Virus record (IMG/VR): IMGVR_UViG_2671180656_000018
DNA: 4,005 nt
DNA from: a virus
Lineage: Duplodnaviria > Heunggongvirae > Uroviricota > Caudoviricetes
Direction: 5' to 3' (one strand)
Shown here: positions 1 through 4,005 of the stretch, piece after piece
Layout: every line of letters begins with the position of its first letter
How positions within the stretch are numbered: the first letter of the stretch is position 1
The notes under the pieces: model-generated
Seen by the model: only the letters and a program-made list of their open reading frames with translations
Told to the model about the DNA's origin: nothing
Databases searched by the model: none
Translations under genes and position numbers: made by a program

Positions 1-337
1 CATGCAGGCAGTGGTCGGCCGGAATGATGTCGTTATACGTACAACTCTCTCCACCCGGAGTTACCGTGCTGCGGCGCGCCAGCTGTTTAATGCGCGGATC
101 CGGAGCATCGTAAGAATCCGGTAACGGAAGCCCTTCACCGTAGGCCATGCCGTTGGACTGTCCGGCAAGCACAACCACGTAGAACCAGTCCGGCTTAGAT
201 GAAGGGCCGACCTGTGGATCTCCTTCAATAGCCACCGCCTGCAAAGGCTGCCAGCCCTCTTTCAGTTTGTGTGTCAGCTTTTCCGCAAGGTCTGACGGCG
301 ACGCCGCCCTGACAACATCATAGTGTTTAAATGCCAT
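1..337 (-). CDS. NanS-p-like sialate O-acetylesterase (DUF1737-like N-domain plus SGNH/DUF303 esterase), 5' part only; C-terminus lies beyond the window edge
   Basis: Minus-strand ORF runs from ATG at 337..335 to the window edge with no stop (112 codons). SD GGGAGGA at plus 341-347, 3 nt upstream of the ATG. An in-frame TAA 20 codons upstream fixes the start. Translation begins MAFKHYDVVRAASPSDLAEKLTHKLKEGWQPLQAVAIEGDPQ and continues VVVLAGQSNGMAYGEG, a block-I GQSN motif typical of SGNH sialate esterases. Family assignment is from memory of prophage NanS-p proteins, not a search. Confidence 0.75.
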   Translation of the reverse strand, partial: MAFKHYDVVRAASPSDLAEKLTHKLKEGWQPLQAVAIEGDPQVGPSSKPDWFYVVVLAGQSNGMAYGEGLPLPDSYDAPDPRIKQLARRSTVTPGGESCTYNDIIPADHCLH

Positions 338-559: not shown

Positions 560-570
560 GTCCATAAGAA

Positions 571-590
571 AGCCCCTCCGGAGAGGGGCT
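571..590. other. GC-rich 8-bp-stem hairpin (inverted repeat) of unknown function
   Basis: AGCCCCTC (571-578), loop CGGA, GAGGGGCT (583-590): perfect 8-bp inverted repeat with 4-nt loop. It lies 11 nt downstream of the plus-strand terminator T-run. On the minus strand it is followed by UUCUU, a weak terminator-like tail. Confidence 0.5.
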
Positions 591-786
591 GGAGAGTGGC
601 GCTATGTGCCATTGCATGGTGCCGGGTGCCTCCCGGTGAATTCAGTACCAGCACCTGAATCCGCGATTATCCCATATACCTACTCGCTGATTGCCCCTCC
701 GCACAGGGGGATTCACCATGCCAGTTTCTTTTAACAAACTCCCCGCAAACCAGACAACAGTCAACCGCCTGAATTGTGAGACATTT

Positions 787-811
787 AAAAAAAGGCCCGC
801 AAAAGCGAGCC
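787..811 (-). terminator. Intrinsic terminator 15 nt downstream of the last tRNA on the minus strand
   Basis: Minus-strand RNA reads GGCUCGC-UUUU-GCGGGCC (7-bp stem including one G-U pair, plus 794-811) followed by U7 (plus A-run 787-793). On the plus strand the same stem has a C/A mismatch and no U-tail. Confidence 0.6.
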
Positions 812-825
812 AGGGAAAATAAGTG

Positions 826-902
826 TGGCGCGTTGTACTGGATTCGAACCAGTGACCGATTGCTTAGAAGGCAATTGCTCTGTCCGGCTGAGCTAACAAC
901 GC
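826..902 (-). tRNA. tRNA-Arg, anticodon UCU (reads AGA), canonical cloverleaf; resembles the argO/argN-type tRNAs of Stx phages
   Basis: Hand fold of the minus strand: acceptor GCGTTGT/ACAACGC, D-arm GCTC-AGCCGGACA-GAGC, anticodon stem ATTGC/GCAAT with loop CTTCTAA (anticodon TCT), variable CGGTC, T-arm ACTGG-TTCGAAT-CCAGT, discriminator G, encoded CCA at 828-826. All stems are perfectly paired. Confidence 0.85.
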
Positions 903-915
903 AGGATACAGATAA

Positions 916-992
916 TGGACCGCCTTCGGGGATCCGAACTCCGCGCAACCAGCTTCGAAAGCTGGCGCTCTTTCCTGATGAGCTAATGGCGG
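916..992 (-). tRNA. tRNA-Arg-like, anticodon UCG in my fold, with non-canonical features; possibly a weakened or pseudo-tRNA
   Basis: Hand fold: acceptor CCGCCAT/AAGGCGG with an A6/A67 mismatch, D-arm GCTC-ATCAGGAAA-GAGC, perfect anticodon stem CCAGC/GCTGG with loop TTTCGAA, T-arm CGGAG-TTCGGAT-CCCCG with an A52/C62 mismatch and G at position 58 where A is near-universal, discriminator T, encoded CCA at 918-916. Confidence 0.5.
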
Positions 993-999
993 TATGTGA

Positions 1000-1075
1000 T
1001 GGTGGCCCTTGCTGGATTTGAACCAGCGACCTGGTGATTATGAGTCGCTCGCTCTCACCACTGAGCTAAAGGGCT
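1000..1075 (-). tRNA. tRNA-Ile2-like (anticodon CAU, ileX/ileZ-type, presumably lysidine-modified to read AUA) with three A/C mismatches; possibly degenerate
   Basis: Hand fold: acceptor AGCCCTT/AAGGGCC with A1/C72 mismatch, D-arm GCTC-AGTGGTGA-GAGC, anticodon stem AGCGA/TCACC with mismatches at 27/43 and 29/41, loop CTCATAA (anticodon CAT), T-arm GCTGG-TTCAAAT-CCAGC perfect, discriminator A, encoded CCA at 1002-1000. Overall sequence resembles E. coli ileX as recalled from memory. Confidence 0.6.
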
Positions 1076-1103
1076 GGGTCAAAAAATAATAATCAGATGA
1101 AAA

Positions 1104-1817
1104 TCAATAATCAAGCCCTTGCCTGGATACATATCTGTCTGGCGGGAAGCCATAATAGCGGTGAAATACAGAAATAAAGTAGGACCAGCTTGAATAACCG
1201 CATTTTTCTGCTACAGCCTGTCCATATCCATGCCGGGAACATAACATATTGACAGCAACACGCATCCGCTCTTCCAGCAACAAGCGACTGAACATGTGCC
1301 CTTCATTTTTCAGTTTTATCTTTAACAAACTCTCACTCATATGCAGGCGTAACGCAATCGCACCAAGCGTCCAGCTTGCTGATATATCTGTCTGAATTAT
1401 CGCCCTGACTTTGGCACTTATACTGGATAAACATCCACTTAAAAATAATAATATCCGTTCATCTGATTCAAACAGCGACAGGCATGCCATCATAAGAAAC
1501 ATATCCGTGGTATCTCCGGAAAATCTCTGGCTGGTAATTAAAGCCTCAGCCAACGCAGGGTTGTTGGGTTCCAGTGACAGATAAAGCGGAACGTCAGTCA
1601 GATGAGTTCTTGTCAGCTTATGCTGAATTTCCAGATATTGACTTACTATGGAATGGTTTATATCGAAAATTTTAACTTTGCCATAATGCATAAGGAAAAG
1701 CGCCCTGATGCATTTGGTGGCCAGAACGACTGAGCCGGGCTTAAGTGACAACGTATCCTTTTCAAGAAAAATATTAATTGGGGAGCAAACCATGATAACT
1801 GAACAGACAACAACCAT
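1104..1817 (-). CDS. AraC/XylS-family transcriptional regulator (AppY/GadX-like), 237 aa
   Basis: Uninterrupted minus-strand ORF (ATG 1817..1815, TGA 1106..1104). C-terminal dual-HTH signature ...WTLGAIALRLHMSESLLKIKLKNEGHMFSRLLLEERMRVAVNMLCSRHGYGQAVAEKCGYSSWSYFISVFHRYYGFPPDRY is typical of AraC/XylS proteins. N-terminus MVVVCSVIMVCSPI and the C-terminal block resemble prophage-encoded AppY as recalled. AT-rich with rare codons (ATA, AGA, AGG seen in the first 60 codons). No clear SD before either candidate ATG (1817 or 1793). Confidence 0.8.
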   Translation of the reverse strand: MVVVCSVIMVCSPINIFLEKDTLSLKPGSVVLATKCIRALFLMHYGKVKIFDINHSIVSQYLEIQHKLTRTHLTDVPLYLSLEPNNPALAEALITSQRFSGDTTDMFLMMACLSLFESDERILLFLSGCLSSISAKVRAIIQTDISASWTLGAIALRLHMSESLLKIKLKNEGHMFSRLLLEERMRVAVNMLCSRHGYGQAVAEKCGYSSWSYFISVFHRYYGFPPDRYVSRQGLDY

Positions 1818-1852
1818 TATAATTTTACTTTCATTAGCAATTGGTTAGTTCA

Positions 1853-1883
1853 ATTATAGCCCCAAAAGGTAAATTATCATCAA
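1853..1883 (-). promoter_or_regulatory. Candidate sigma70 promoter for the AraC-family gene
   Basis: On the minus strand, TTGATG (plus 1878-1883) as -35, a 19-nt spacer, then a perfect TATAAT (plus 1853-1858) about 36 nt upstream of the ATG at 1817. Spacer is longer than optimal; prediction by eye only. Confidence 0.3.
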
Positions 1884-1911
1884 CACATAAGCAAAGGACT
1901 GACAGGTGCCG

Positions 1912-2151
1912 CTAACACCCACCAGCCGCCCATTTACCACAAATAAAAAAGCCTTCAGGACTGAAGGCGTCTGTAACAACCGAACTGATAGTCTGCCAGA
2001 CCCGCATAACCAGCTGGGTCAGTATTAACTGGCAGCGCTCGCGTGAAAGGTACGTATTCTGCGCAATCTCCCCGACCGTCGCCGGTTCGGTGACGCTTAA
2101 TTCATCAAACACAACTCTGGCGGTTTCTGTCATATCCTGCTGTTTCAGCAT
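1912..2151 (-). CDS. Hypothetical small protein (79 aa, possible HTH); coding status doubtful because an intrinsic terminator lies inside its 3' end
   Basis: ORF from the track, ATG 2151..2149, GC-normal composition. HTH-like segment PATVGEIAQNTYLSRERCQLILTQL. Only a distant GGG about 10 nt upstream as SD. The last roughly 19 codons (...AFSPEGFFICGKWAAGGC) are a read-through of the terminator hairpin and U-run at 1941-1968, so a terminated transcript would lack the stop codon. Confidence 0.3.
   Translation of the reverse strand: MLKQQDMTETARVVFDELSVTEPATVGEIAQNTYLSRERCQLILTQLVMRVWQTISSVVTDAFSPEGFFICGKWAAGGC
1941..1968 (-). terminator. Strong intrinsic terminator on the minus strand
   Basis: Minus-strand RNA: GCCUUCA-GUCC-UGAAGGC (perfect 7-bp stem, 4-nt loop; plus 1951-1968) followed by UUUUUUAUUU (plus A-run 1941-1950). 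Confidence 0.7.
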
Positions 2152-2274
2152 GTCTTTTTACCCTTTCCGGTTAACGTGACACACCAATAACTCTTGTCGA
2201 AAAAGCCAGCAAGCTGAAAGACCTGTATTAATAACTACCAGCACATTTAACGCACTGCGCTACTTTGCGGGCAC

Positions 2275-2297
2275 AAAAAACCCGCTCAGAGGCGGGG
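2275..2297 (-). terminator. Intrinsic terminator downstream of the CPBP protease gene
   Basis: Minus-strand RNA: CCCGC-CUCUGA-GCGGG (5-bp all-GC stem, plus 2281-2296) followed by UUUUUU (plus A-run 2275-2280). Lies about 140 nt after the CDS stop at 2438. Confidence 0.5.
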
Positions 2298-2437: not shown

Positions 2438-3256
2438 TCAATTATGTTTTAAAAATGGATAGGTAAAGAATAACAAGTGACACAGATTCAAACCAAAATG
2501 GAAAAGGGTGGCAACCCACAAACGCCCACTCCACATCCATGACAATCCATACACAACACCAGATAACGTGGCAAATAATACAAGTAAAGCACCACCTGAA
2601 TAGTGATAAAAACCAAACAACAAAGCCGCCACAATTAATGCAACCAATGGAGACGTTACTTCTGATAGCCGTGATTGAATATACCCTCTAAATAATGATT
2701 CCTCTGCCAGAGACACAAAAAACAAATTAGCCAATATAAACTCTGGCAACCACTCAGGAAAATGAATCTCTGGCTTTAATCCACCAAAAAAAACAGCCAA
2801 AAACAGGATAAGAGGAACAGAGAGCGACAGAGCCCCCCACTTCCACAAAGACACTTCTGATTTTACTTCTTTTTTAAACAAAGAAGATGTACACAGGACT
2901 AACAAAAATGGCACCAGCGCTTTATCAAAATTAAAATACATTGTATAGGGAGTACTTTGAGGGCCAACAGTAACAGAATTTAGCACTACAGGATTGTGAA
3001 ACCCTGGCCATAGATGGAAAAATAATGCTATGGCTGATAAAACTATGCCAACTTCATATATAGATTTAGCCCAGGCGTTATATTTCCAGTTGAACTTCAA
3101 AATAATAAAAAAAACGATTGTAGCAACAAAAAATAACACCGACCAATCAATAATATCATTAAGCACAGCCAGGACAACAGACACCGTCAACAATGAAAAA
3201 GCCACTACCTTATGCCAACTGAGAGTTGACAGTGACAGTACTAACACAATCCACAT
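2438..3256 (-). CDS. CPBP-family (CAAX protease / Abi, PF02517-like) intramembrane metalloprotease, polytopic membrane protein, about 272 aa
   Basis: Minus-strand ORF. I place the start at ATG 3256..3254, which has a strong SD AAGGAG (plus 3262-3267) 5 nt upstream; the track start two codons earlier is a GTG with no SD spacing. Stop TGA at 2440..2438. Highly hydrophobic sequence. The three CPBP signature motifs are present in order in the C-terminal half: EExxxR (LAEESLFRGY), FxxxH (LLFGFYHY) and HxxxN (HFGLNL). AT-rich with ATA codons. Confidence 0.8.
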   Translation of the reverse strand: MWIVLVLSLSTLSWHKVVAFSLLTVSVVLAVLNDIIDWSVLFFVATIVFFIILKFNWKYNAWAKSIYEVGIVLSAIALFFHLWPGFHNPVVLNSVTVGPQSTPYTMYFNFDKALVPFLLVLCTSSLFKKEVKSEVSLWKWGALSLSVPLILFLAVFFGGLKPEIHFPEWLPEFILANLFFVSLAEESLFRGYIQSRLSEVTSPLVALIVAALLFGFYHYSGGALLVLFATLSGVVYGLSWMWSGRLWVATLFHFGLNLCHLLFFTYPFLKHN

Positions 3257-3287
3257 AAGCACTCCTTTTATTTAATGATGAAGATTG

Positions 3288-3407: not shown

Positions 3408-3779
3408 CTACCGCATATCCATATCTAACCGGACATTCAGAGCCATAAGCATTCCTTCAATAATACCTTCCGCTTTATAAAGCCTTTTACCAATAAGCCC
3501 ATCAGAACATCTATGCTTACGTGCAAGAGCCATAAATGTCATTCCACCTACGTAATAATCCACCAACAAATCGTGCAAATACTGATTATTCTTGTTTAAT
3601 CGTGCCATACAACCACAAATTATCATGGCGTCATCATCAGAACACTTAGGACGTGATTTCACTTTAGTCGGGATTAATCCTTTAAAACCAGCAGCTATCG
3701 AGGGCCATGTTACATCTTCATGATTATTTGCTGCCCATGCCCCCCATCGCTCAAGAACCATCTGGATATCACGCGCCAT
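3408..3779 (-). CDS. Phage late-gene antiterminator Q (QuuD/Q21-type, Phage_antitermQ family), about 123 aa
   Basis: Minus-strand ORF. I place the start at ATG 3779..3777 with SD GAGGTGG 5 nt upstream (plus 3785-3791); the track start three codons earlier is a GTG. Stop TAG at 3410..3408. Sequence [25 protein letters not shown]...[16 protein letters not shown]...LLVDYY... closely matches my recollection of E. coli prophage Q proteins (QuuD/QuuQ). Position is directly downstream of rusA, as in lambdoid prophages. Confidence 0.85.
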
Positions 3780-4005
3780 CGTTACCACCTCTGATTTCGT
3801 AAATCTTCACGCCCAGCCGTCCACCTGGCACAGGCTGACCGCGCACAATATTGATTTCATCAAACTGCTCGTCATCAATGAGCACTTCCGCATGCGTCAG
3901 CGCATCCAGCGGTGCTTTCAGAATGTTGTCCAGGTCACGGCGGCGCTTATCCGGTGGTTCTGCAATAATTTTTATTGCCAGCCGTCCGGACAGGCTTAAT
4001 TTCAG
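3769..4005 (-). CDS. rusA: RusA Holliday-junction resolvase, C-terminal 78 aa; N-terminus lies beyond the window edge
   Basis: Minus-strand frame is open from the window edge to TGA at 3771..3769. Translation ...[62 protein letters not shown] matches the recalled RusA C-terminus (PDRRRRDLDNL...GGRL...). The stop overlaps the Q start codon region. Confidence 0.8.

What the first reader, a model, noticed from the sequence alone, without database searches (positions are those of the whole stretch)
1076..1883. AT-rich AraC/AppY-like regulator gene placed directly upstream of rare-codon tRNAs
Seen in sequence: an AraC/XylS-family ORF with a candidate promoter carrying a perfect TATAAT, ending 28 nt before the 5' end of the tRNA-Ile2-like gene. 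It uses ATA, AGA and AGG codons, which are exactly the codons read by the tRNAs immediately downstream (CAU-lysidine Ile, UCU Arg). Established knowledge: AppY-like regulators are prophage-encoded global regulators in E. coli, and phage tRNAs are thought to support expression of AT-rich cargo. Inference: a regulator inserted into the late region that could rewire host genes when the prophage is resident, possibly co-transcribed with the tRNA cluster.
Basis: partly seen in the sequence, partly recalled or inferred. Interest (0 to 1): 0.5.

Follow-up and report, generated by a model that had tools for sequence, protein, structure and literature searches.

The report
Known prophage regulator gene psrA

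Summary
A 237-codon AraC/XylS-type ORF lies at 1104-1817 (minus strand). It has a TATAAT-containing promoter-like site at 1880..1853 and ends exactly 28 nt before tRNA-Ile(CAU), which is followed by tRNA-Arg(UCG) and tRNA-Arg(UCU). The gene is not new. Its DNA is 100% identical to ECs_1087 of prophage Sp4 in O157:H7 Sakai, which the literature names psrA. Published work reports that PsrA raises gadE and yhiF expression and so represses LEE type III secretion. Its nearest K-12 relatives are GadW (35%), YdeO (31%) and AppY (29%), all aligned from residue 1, so it is intact and not a fragment. Its ATA/AGA/AGG use (13 of 237 codons) is what its base composition predicts. It falls within the range of relatives that have no neighbouring tRNA. 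The psr-to-tRNA-Ile junction is present in all 726 genomes that carry a psr gene. A 28-nt gap makes that linkage expected, and the tRNA occurs in about four times as many genomes without psr. Read-through into the tRNAs is plausible because no strong terminator lies between them, but the tRNAs probably also keep their own promoter. Verdict: already known, low interest.

The parts
1104..1817 (-). psrA coding sequence (237 aa; AraC/XylS family, GadW/YdeO/AppY/PatE subgroup)
   Evidence: ORF. Pfam HTH_18 and HTH_AraC. 100% DNA identity to Sakai ECs_1087 in prophage Sp4, which PMC13502914 names psrA. Same protein accession WP_000261909.1 in FRIK944 and in resequenced EDL933. Full-length alignments from residue 1 with GadW, YdeO, AppY and ECs0287.
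1853..1880 (-). Candidate psrA promoter (ATGATA-16-TATAAT; alternative -35 TTGATG at 19-nt spacing)
   Evidence: Best sigma-70-like match in the scan. TATAAT and TTGATGA are invariant in 7 psr loci of 85-100% identity. Function is not shown.
1951..1968 (-). Intrinsic-terminator-like hairpin plus T-run upstream of the psrA promoter
   Evidence: GCCTTCAGTCCTGAAGGC TTTTTTATTT. Conserved in most psr loci.
1912..2151 (-). Frameshifted copy of a 65-aa winged-HTH-like small gene that travels with psr
   Evidence: PGAP annotates it as 'TrmB family, frameshifted'. The alignment shows the frame is lost after residue 49 relative to four intact 65-aa copies. Weak TrmB/MarR-type HTH hits below the cutoffs.
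1086..1114 (-). Candidate tRNA promoter overlapping the psrA stop codon (TTGATT-17-TATTAT)
   Evidence: The TATTAT about 10 nt upstream of ileZ is shared with psr-less prophages Sp5 and Sp10. [quoted passage not shown]
1000..1075 (-). tRNA-Ile(CAU) ileZ, 28 nt after the psrA stop
   Evidence: This copy carries G1>A and an anticodon-stem G>A change relative to 7 other copies.
916..992 (-). tRNA-Arg(UCG) argN
826..902 (-). tRNA-Arg(UCU) argO
794..811 (-). Intrinsic-terminator-like site closing the psrA-tRNA block
   Evidence: GGCTCGCTTTTGCGGGCC TTTTTTTAAA. The same element follows argO in Stx2 prophage Sp5.
788..2253 (-). Extent of the cassette shared at 93% identity with the paralogous psrB-type locus in prophage Sp11
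   Evidence: BLAST of the window against Sakai Sp11. The Q and CPBP genes upstream are not shared.

Best explanation
[quoted passage not shown] It is an intact two-domain AraC/XylS regulator of the GadW/YdeO/AppY/PatE subgroup. It is carried as a moron between the Q antiterminator and the tRNA cluster of a lambdoid prophage. In the lysogen it is transcribed from its own promoter; that it is transcribed is published, but the promoter position is inferred. According to published work, it raises expression of the GAD-island regulators gadE and yhiF. [quoted passage not shown] Its position 28 nt upstream of ileZ-argN-argO is best explained by where the cassette was inserted: right at the tRNA 5' flank, replacing about 84 nt of Q-to-tRNA spacer. 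Tight physical linkage since then has kept the two together. Its rare codons reflect unselected AT-rich foreign DNA, not adaptation to the neighbouring tRNAs.
For: Identity: 714/714 nt match Sakai 1178677-1179390, which is ECs_1087 in Sp4 next to pchA. PMC13502914 writes 'psrA (ecs1087, Sp4)' and shows that it is expressed and regulated in lysogens. The protein accession WP_000261909.1 is also found in resequenced EDL933. Function from the literature: reviews PMC10877973 and PMC8565820 summarise Tree et al. 2011. Family: Pfam AraC HTH above the cutoffs. The GadX DNA-binding domain 3mkl matches at E=1.5e-18 and Rns at 4.8e-16. End-to-end alignments give GadW 35%, YdeO 31%, AppY 29%, ECs0287 37%, and the Sp11 paralogue 91%. 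Intactness: the 714-nt ORF and its ATG are conserved in 7 loci of 85-100% DNA identity. The gene is present in 726 of 5426 complete E. coli genomes. Insertion: comparing Sp10 with Sp11 shows that a 1244-nt psr cassette replaces 84 nt, with its boundary 1 nt from the ileZ 5' end. Codons: shares match the base composition. AppY has 96, the PatE-like protein 65, GadX 36, GadW 29 and YdeO 20 per 1000, all without adjacent tRNAs.
Against: I could not read the primary functional papers (Tree 2011, Yang 2015, Bender 2012). The mechanism therefore rests on two reviews and one later paper from the naming laboratory. Direct promoter binding is reported for PsrB and PatE, not explicitly for PsrA, in the texts I read. 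The reviews place psrA in OI-50/CP-933N. In Sakai and in the gapless EDL933 assembly the identical gene is in Sp4/CP-933M, and the CP-933N stretch has no psr. That discrepancy is unresolved. The promoter is a consensus match only.
Confidence: 0.93

Rival explanations
1. psrA and ileZ-argN-argO form one transcription unit. Transcripts from the psrA promoter run into the tRNAs, and RNase P cleavage at the ileZ 5' end creates the psrA mRNA 3' end. This would couple regulator and tRNA output.
For: Only a weak 5-bp hairpin (1125..1112) lies between the psrA stop and ileZ. Terminator-like sites flank the block at 1968..1951 and 811..794. The 28-nt (26-28 nt) junction is kept in 7 of 7 diverse loci and in every one of the 727 records that carry psr.
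Against: A promoter-like TTGATT-17-TATTAT sits in the last codons of psrA. Its -10 is shared with psr-less prophages. In one of those, dRNA-seq indicated a tRNA-specific promoter. The tRNAs therefore need not depend on psrA transcription. Conservation of a 28-nt junction is expected from physical linkage alone. No transcript data were examined.
Confidence: 0.35
2. The adjacent tRNAs are there to support translation of psrA and other AT-rich cargo, that is, selected codon-tRNA matching in cis.
For: 13 of 237 psrA codons are ATA, AGA or AGG. That is about 15 times the core-gene rate and about 2 times the prophage average (P=0.01 against the prophage rate).
Against: Codon shares equal the expectation from base composition. 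There is no CGA codon for argN. Relatives without neighbouring tRNAs are equally or more enriched. tRNAs act in trans, and an ileZ-type tRNA is found at 7481 places in 3053 genomes against 1324 psr places. The ileZ copy next to psrA in this prophage has two stem-breaking substitutions.
Confidence: 0.08
3. The ORF is a decaying or silent remnant (pseudogene or fragment), as the shorter 195-aa Sakai annotation might suggest.
For: Sakai annotates only 588 nt. There is no obvious Shine-Dalgarno sequence before the ATG at 1817 (direct reading). The upstream partner gene is frameshifted.
Against: Alignments with GadW, YdeO, AppY and ECs0287 start at residue 1. The ATG and the full 714-nt frame are conserved in diverged loci. 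Expression and deletion phenotypes are published.
Confidence: 0.02

Closest known systems
PsrA (ECs1087 / z1789) of E. coli O157:H7
   Same: Identical DNA and protein, and the same neighbours: Q, CPBP gene, ileZ-argN-argO, NanS-type esterase, IS629/IS1203 and pchA.
   Different: None within the gene. The window differs from all matched O157 records only by a net 36-nt loss in the downstream esterase gene.
PsrB-type paralogue (Sakai ECs2191 in Sp11; z2104 in EDL933)
   Same: 91% protein identity. The cassette is the same, with the small wHTH gene upstream and ileZ 28 nt downstream, and pchB is nearby. This fits the published '90% identity'.
   Different: It has a different Q antiterminator and no CPBP gene, and only ileZ and argO are annotated downstream. 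That ECs2191 equals z2104 is my inference.
PatE (z0321, OI-8); probable Sakai counterpart ECs0287 in Sp1
   Same: A prophage-borne AraC-type activator of acid resistance. It is 37% identical over the full length.
   Different: It sits in a different prophage position with no adjacent tRNA, and its GC content is lower at 35%.
GadW, GadX and YdeO (E. coli K-12 acid-resistance regulators)
   Same: The same two-domain architecture, with 35%, 38% (C-terminal half) and 31% identity. They act on the same GAD regulon.
   Different: They are chromosomal core or island genes. The YdeO and GadX NCBIfam equivalog scores are far below cutoff (104 against 348, and 88 against 500), so PsrA is not an orthologue of either.
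AppY (DLP12 prophage, K-12)
   Same: A prophage-encoded AraC-type global regulator that is AT-rich and rich in rare codons.
   Different: Only 29% identical. It lies at the far end of DLP12 near ompT rather than between Q and the tRNAs.

Membership tests
AraC/XylS transcription factor family | C-terminal domain of about 100 aa with two helix-turn-helix motifs | tested here: met
   Pfam HTH_18 36.6 bits (cutoff 33.6) at residues 155-230. HTH_AraC 35.3 bits (cutoff 26.6). GadX DNA-binding domain 3mkl at E=1.5e-18 over residues 134-233.
GadX/GadW/YdeO/AppY/PatE subgroup | Full-length homology, including the N-terminal domain, to these regulators | tested here: met
   BLASTP from residue 1 to about 233: GadW 35% (5e-39), AppY 29% (1e-33), YdeO 31% (3e-31), ECs0287 37% (1e-52).
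YdeO or GadX orthologue (NCBIfam equivalogs) | Score above the curated equivalog cutoff | tested here: not met
   YdeO 104.1 bits against 348. GadX 88.5 bits against 500.
PsrA (named gene) | Sequence identity with the locus named psrA | tested here: met
   100% over 714 nt to Sakai ECs_1087. The name is given in PMC13502914.
PsrA (named gene) | Raises gadE/yhiF expression and represses LEE type III secretion | not testable with these tools
   Taken from the literature only.
PsrA (named gene) | About 90% identity to the paralogue PsrB, and association with pch genes in prophages | tested here: met
   91% identity to ECs2191. pchA lies about 4 kb from ECs1087 and pchB about 6.7 kb from ECs2191.
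tRNA-Ile2 (lysidine-modified CAU anticodon) for the adjacent tRNA | CAU anticodon with Ile2-type rather than Met-type body (C4-G69 and C5-G68 are TilS determinants; recalled from Ikeuchi et al. 2005, not checked here) | tested here: inconclusive
   The anticodon is CAT. The acceptor stem reads xGCCCTT/AAGGGCC, so C4-G69 and C5-G68 are present. PGAP and Sakai annotation call it tRNA-Ile/ileZ, whereas ARAGORN labels it Met. Lysidine modification cannot be tested. This copy has A1.C72 and C.A mismatches.
mRNA-tRNA operon (psrA co-transcribed with ileZ-argN-argO) | A single transcript spanning the psrA-ileZ junction | not testable with these tools
   Only sequence compatibility is available: no strong terminator in between, flanking terminators, and a competing internal promoter candidate.

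The most novel reading that the evidence does not exclude
psr genes are obligately fused to the prophage tRNA-Ile(CAU) cluster as one expression unit. The psr promoter feeds the tRNAs, and RNase P processing defines the psr mRNA 3' end. Induction of PsrA (reported after host-cell attachment) would then also raise the supply of ATA/AGA-reading tRNAs for AT-rich, H-NS-silenced virulence genes. The invariant junction (727 of 727 records), kept across at least four antiterminator types and different downstream cargo including stx2, would then reflect selection and not mere linkage.
Probability: 0.1. Interest if true: 0.4.

Novelty: already known. Interest (0 to 1): 0.12.

Why it matters
It matters little as a discovery. 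psrA and its role in linking prophage carriage to acid resistance and type III secretion control in EHEC have been published since 2011. The scan did pick a biologically meaningful gene from sequence alone and guessed its regulatory targets correctly. This check adds four small points. The 237-aa start is supported over the 195-aa Sakai annotation. The psr cassette is always joined to a prophage tRNA-Ile gene. Its rare codons are explained by base composition. The tRNA-Ile copy beside psrA in this prophage carries two stem-disrupting changes.

Tried and rejected
(1) I looked for psrA in the prophage the reviews name (OI-50/CP-933N, which is Sakai Sp6) and in Sp10. Neither holds an AraC gene. 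The gene was found in Sp4/CP-933M.

(2) I tried to read the primary papers (PMC4288888, PMC3416394, PMC7099609). None is held. One look-up timed out.

(3) Literature searches for ileZ/argN/argO returned nothing useful. The supplement with the Sakai transcription start sites is not held.

(4) I tested the codon-adaptation idea against core genes, prophage ORFs, paralogues and base composition. I rejected it as a specific signal.

(5) I considered the pseudogene or fragment reading and rejected it.

(6) TATAAT on its own is not enriched in the window.

(7) I did not run the large protein-database searches or a structure prediction, because the identity was settled by exact DNA identity and by the literature.

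Full report
**What is in the window.** All features relevant to the finding lie on the minus strand, in this order:
- a Q antiterminator gene (3408-3788; Pfam Phage_antitermQ, 8.7e-52)
- a CPBP/Rce1-like membrane protease gene (2438-3262)
- a small ORF (1912-2151)
- the flagged ORF (1104-1817, 237 aa)
- three tRNA genes: CAT at 1000-1075, TCG at 916-992 and TCT at 826-902
- an Rfam STnc100 sRNA match (560-750)
- the start of a SASA/NanS-type esterase gene

This is the start of the late region of a lambdoid prophage. The whole window matches E. coli O157:H7 chromosomes at about 100% identity.

**Check of the observation.**
- The ORF carries an AraC-type double helix-turn-helix at residues 155-230, with both Pfam models above their curated cutoffs.
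- The stop codon ends at 1104 and the tRNA begins at 1075, so the spacer is exactly 28 nt.
- A perfect TATAAT sits at 1858..1853. With ATGATA 16 nt upstream it is the best promoter-like match in the region scanned.
- TATAAT alone is no more frequent than chance in this window.
- The ORF contains 7 ATA, 3 AGA and 3 AGG codons and is 42% GC.

**What it is.** The 714-nt ORF is 100% identical to Sakai NC_002695.2 1178677-1179390. That locus is ECs_1087 in prophage Sp4, annotated as an AraC-family regulator and lying about 4 kb from pchA. A 2026 paper from the laboratory that named the gene writes 'psrA (ecs1087, Sp4)' and reports its regulated expression in lysogens. The same protein accession (WP_000261909.1) is annotated in FRIK944 and in the gapless EDL933 assembly, with the same neighbours.

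Two reviews summarise the experimental work of Tree et al. 2011 and Yang et al. 2015:
- PsrA and its 90%-identical paralogue PsrB are prophage-encoded AraC/XylS regulators.
- They increase expression of the GAD-island regulators GadE and YhiF, and so repress LEE type III secretion.
- PsrA contributes to persistence in sheep.
- PsrB and PatE bind the hdeA and gadE promoters and raise acid resistance.

I could not obtain the primary papers.

**Family placement and integrity.**
- PsrA aligns from residue 1 to about 233 with K-12 GadW (35%), YdeO (31%) and AppY (29%), and over its C-terminal half with GadX (38%).
- It is 37% identical over the full length to Sakai ECs0287 in Sp1, the probable PatE counterpart.
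- It is 91% identical to ECs2191 in Sp11, the PsrB-type paralogue.
- Among solved structures, the best matches are the GadX DNA-binding domain and Rns.
- NCBIfam equivalog models for YdeO and GadX match far below cutoff, so it is a relative of both and an orthologue of neither.
- The N-terminal residues are shared (MVVVCSVIM in PsrA against MATTCSVIL in ECs0287), and the ATG at 1817 is invariant in seven loci of 85-100% DNA identity. The 237-aa start is therefore supported over the 195-aa Sakai annotation.

The gene is not a fragment or a pseudogene.

**The tRNA neighbourhood.** The psr gene occurs in 727 records (726 of 5426 complete genomes). A query spanning the psr 3' end, the spacer and ileZ is covered at 80% or more in exactly the same number of records. 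Every genome with psr therefore has at least one copy with the junction intact.

Seven loci I inspected individually all have tRNA-Ile(CAT) 26-28 nt after the stop. This holds despite at least four different antiterminator genes upstream. The downstream tRNA sets also differ (Arg-Arg, Arg-Gly, Thr-Gly, and in Sp11 only argO), as does the cargo (esterase, TerB, DUF6645, stx2).

The reverse does not hold. ileZ-like tRNAs occur at 7481 places in 3053 genomes, for example in Sp10 and in the Stx2 prophage Sp5, neither of which has psr. Comparing Sp10 with Sp11 shows a 1244-nt psr cassette replacing 84 nt, with its downstream edge 1 nt from the tRNA 5' end. The psrA and psrB loci share window 2253..788 at 93% identity. 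The simplest reading is one insertion next to ileZ followed by spread through recombination among lambdoid prophages. A 28-nt gap would rarely be split.

**Codons.** ATA+AGA+AGG make up 55 per 1000 codons in psrA. The rate is 3.7 per 1000 in 41 core genes and 24-28 per 1000 in long ORFs of three Sakai prophages. The synonymous shares equal what the gene's own base composition predicts (Ile-ATA P=0.36; Arg-AGR P=0.42).

Relatives with no neighbouring tRNA span the same range:

| Protein | ATA+AGA+AGG per 1000 codons |
|---|---|
| AppY | 96 |
| ECs0287 | 65 |
| PsrA | 55 |
| PsrB-type paralogue (has adjacent tRNA) | 38 |
| GadX | 36 |
| GadW | 29 |
| YdeO | 20 |

There is no CGA codon for argN. 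The codon match is true as an observation, but it is typical of AT-rich acquired genes and is not evidence of coupling. In addition, the ileZ copy beside psrA in this prophage differs from seven other copies by G1>A (an A.C mismatch at the top of the acceptor stem) and by a G>A change that breaks an anticodon-stem pair. It may therefore be a weakened copy.

**Transcription.** Terminator-like sites lie upstream of the psrA promoter (1968..1951, and 2296..2281 after the CPBP gene) and directly after argO (811..794). Between psrA and ileZ there is only a weak 5-bp hairpin. Read-through from psrA into the tRNAs is thus plausible.

However, TTGATT-17-TATTAT overlaps the psrA stop codon (1114..1086). 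Its TATTAT is shared with the psr-less Sp5 and Sp10 loci at the same distance from ileZ. [quoted passage not shown] The tRNAs therefore probably keep their own promoter. I found no transcript data that settle co-transcription.

**Verdict.** The only open question is whether psrA and the tRNAs share a transcript, which is a modest point. Novelty: already known. Interest: low.

Noticed in passing
window 560-750 (-), terminator 590..571: An Rfam STnc100 match (138 bits) lies between argO and the esterase gene. This is where PMC11774850 places the 154-nt sRNA EvrS (Esr023), between z1789 and esterase z1793. EvrS is reported to destabilise z2269 mRNA and lower LEE expression. I did not compare the sequences directly.
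   Followed up: partly
window 1000-1075 (-): This ileZ copy (identical in Sakai Sp4) has G1>A, giving A1.C72, and a G>A change in the anticodon stem, giving C.A. Seven other prophage copies have neither change. It may be a weakened or decaying tRNA copy.
   Followed up: partly
window 244-245: The window has 'AA' where FRIK944 and Sakai have a 38-nt segment. This is a net in-frame loss of 36 nt near the 5' end of the SASA/NanS-type esterase gene. The 20 best whole-window matches listed were all split into two pieces spanning 4041 nt, as this indel would cause; the sequence itself was compared only with FRIK944 and Sakai.
   Followed up: partly
window 1912-2151 (-): The small gene upstream of psrA is a frameshifted copy of a conserved 65-aa protein with weak winged-HTH (TrmB/MarR-like) similarity. 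That protein accompanies psr in Sp11, MS7163, STEC409 and EH031. Its function is unknown.
   Followed up: partly
L004 (EDL933 1630001-1680000), L018 (EDL933 1245001-1290000), L002 (Sakai Sp6): Reviews and the EvrS paper place psrA/z1789 in OI-50/CP-933N. In Sakai and in the gapless EDL933 assembly the gene is in Sp4/CP-933M next to yccA, and the CP-933N/Sp6 stretch has no psr. The original EDL933 prophage assembly may have misplaced this segment.
   Followed up: partly
L014 3223-4214 (STEC409); phage OQ243220.1: A psr homologue (about 89-92% identical) sits directly upstream of ileZ-argN-argO-stx2AB in an Stx2 prophage. It is also present in the isolated phage phiSTEC1575-Stx2k, so psr can travel on Shiga-toxin phages.
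   Followed up: no
window 1104-1691 versus 1104-1817: Sakai annotates ECs_1087 and ECs_2191 as 588 nt (195 aa). Homology to GadW, YdeO, AppY and ECs0287 from residue 1 supports the 714-nt (237 aa) form used by PGAP.
   Followed up: yes
window 2438-3262 (-) and 2281..2296: The CPBP/Rce1-like intramembrane protease gene lies between Q and the psr cassette. It has its own downstream terminator-like site and is absent from the psrB-type locus in Sp11. It is a separate moron of unknown role.
   Followed up: no
phage records H94-H106: Lambda-like environmental phages (Lambda_ev series, 1H12, mEp332, ev099) carry AraC-type genes 37-40% identical to PsrA. GadW/AppY-like regulators therefore seem to be a recurrent cargo of lambdoid phages.
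   Followed up: no
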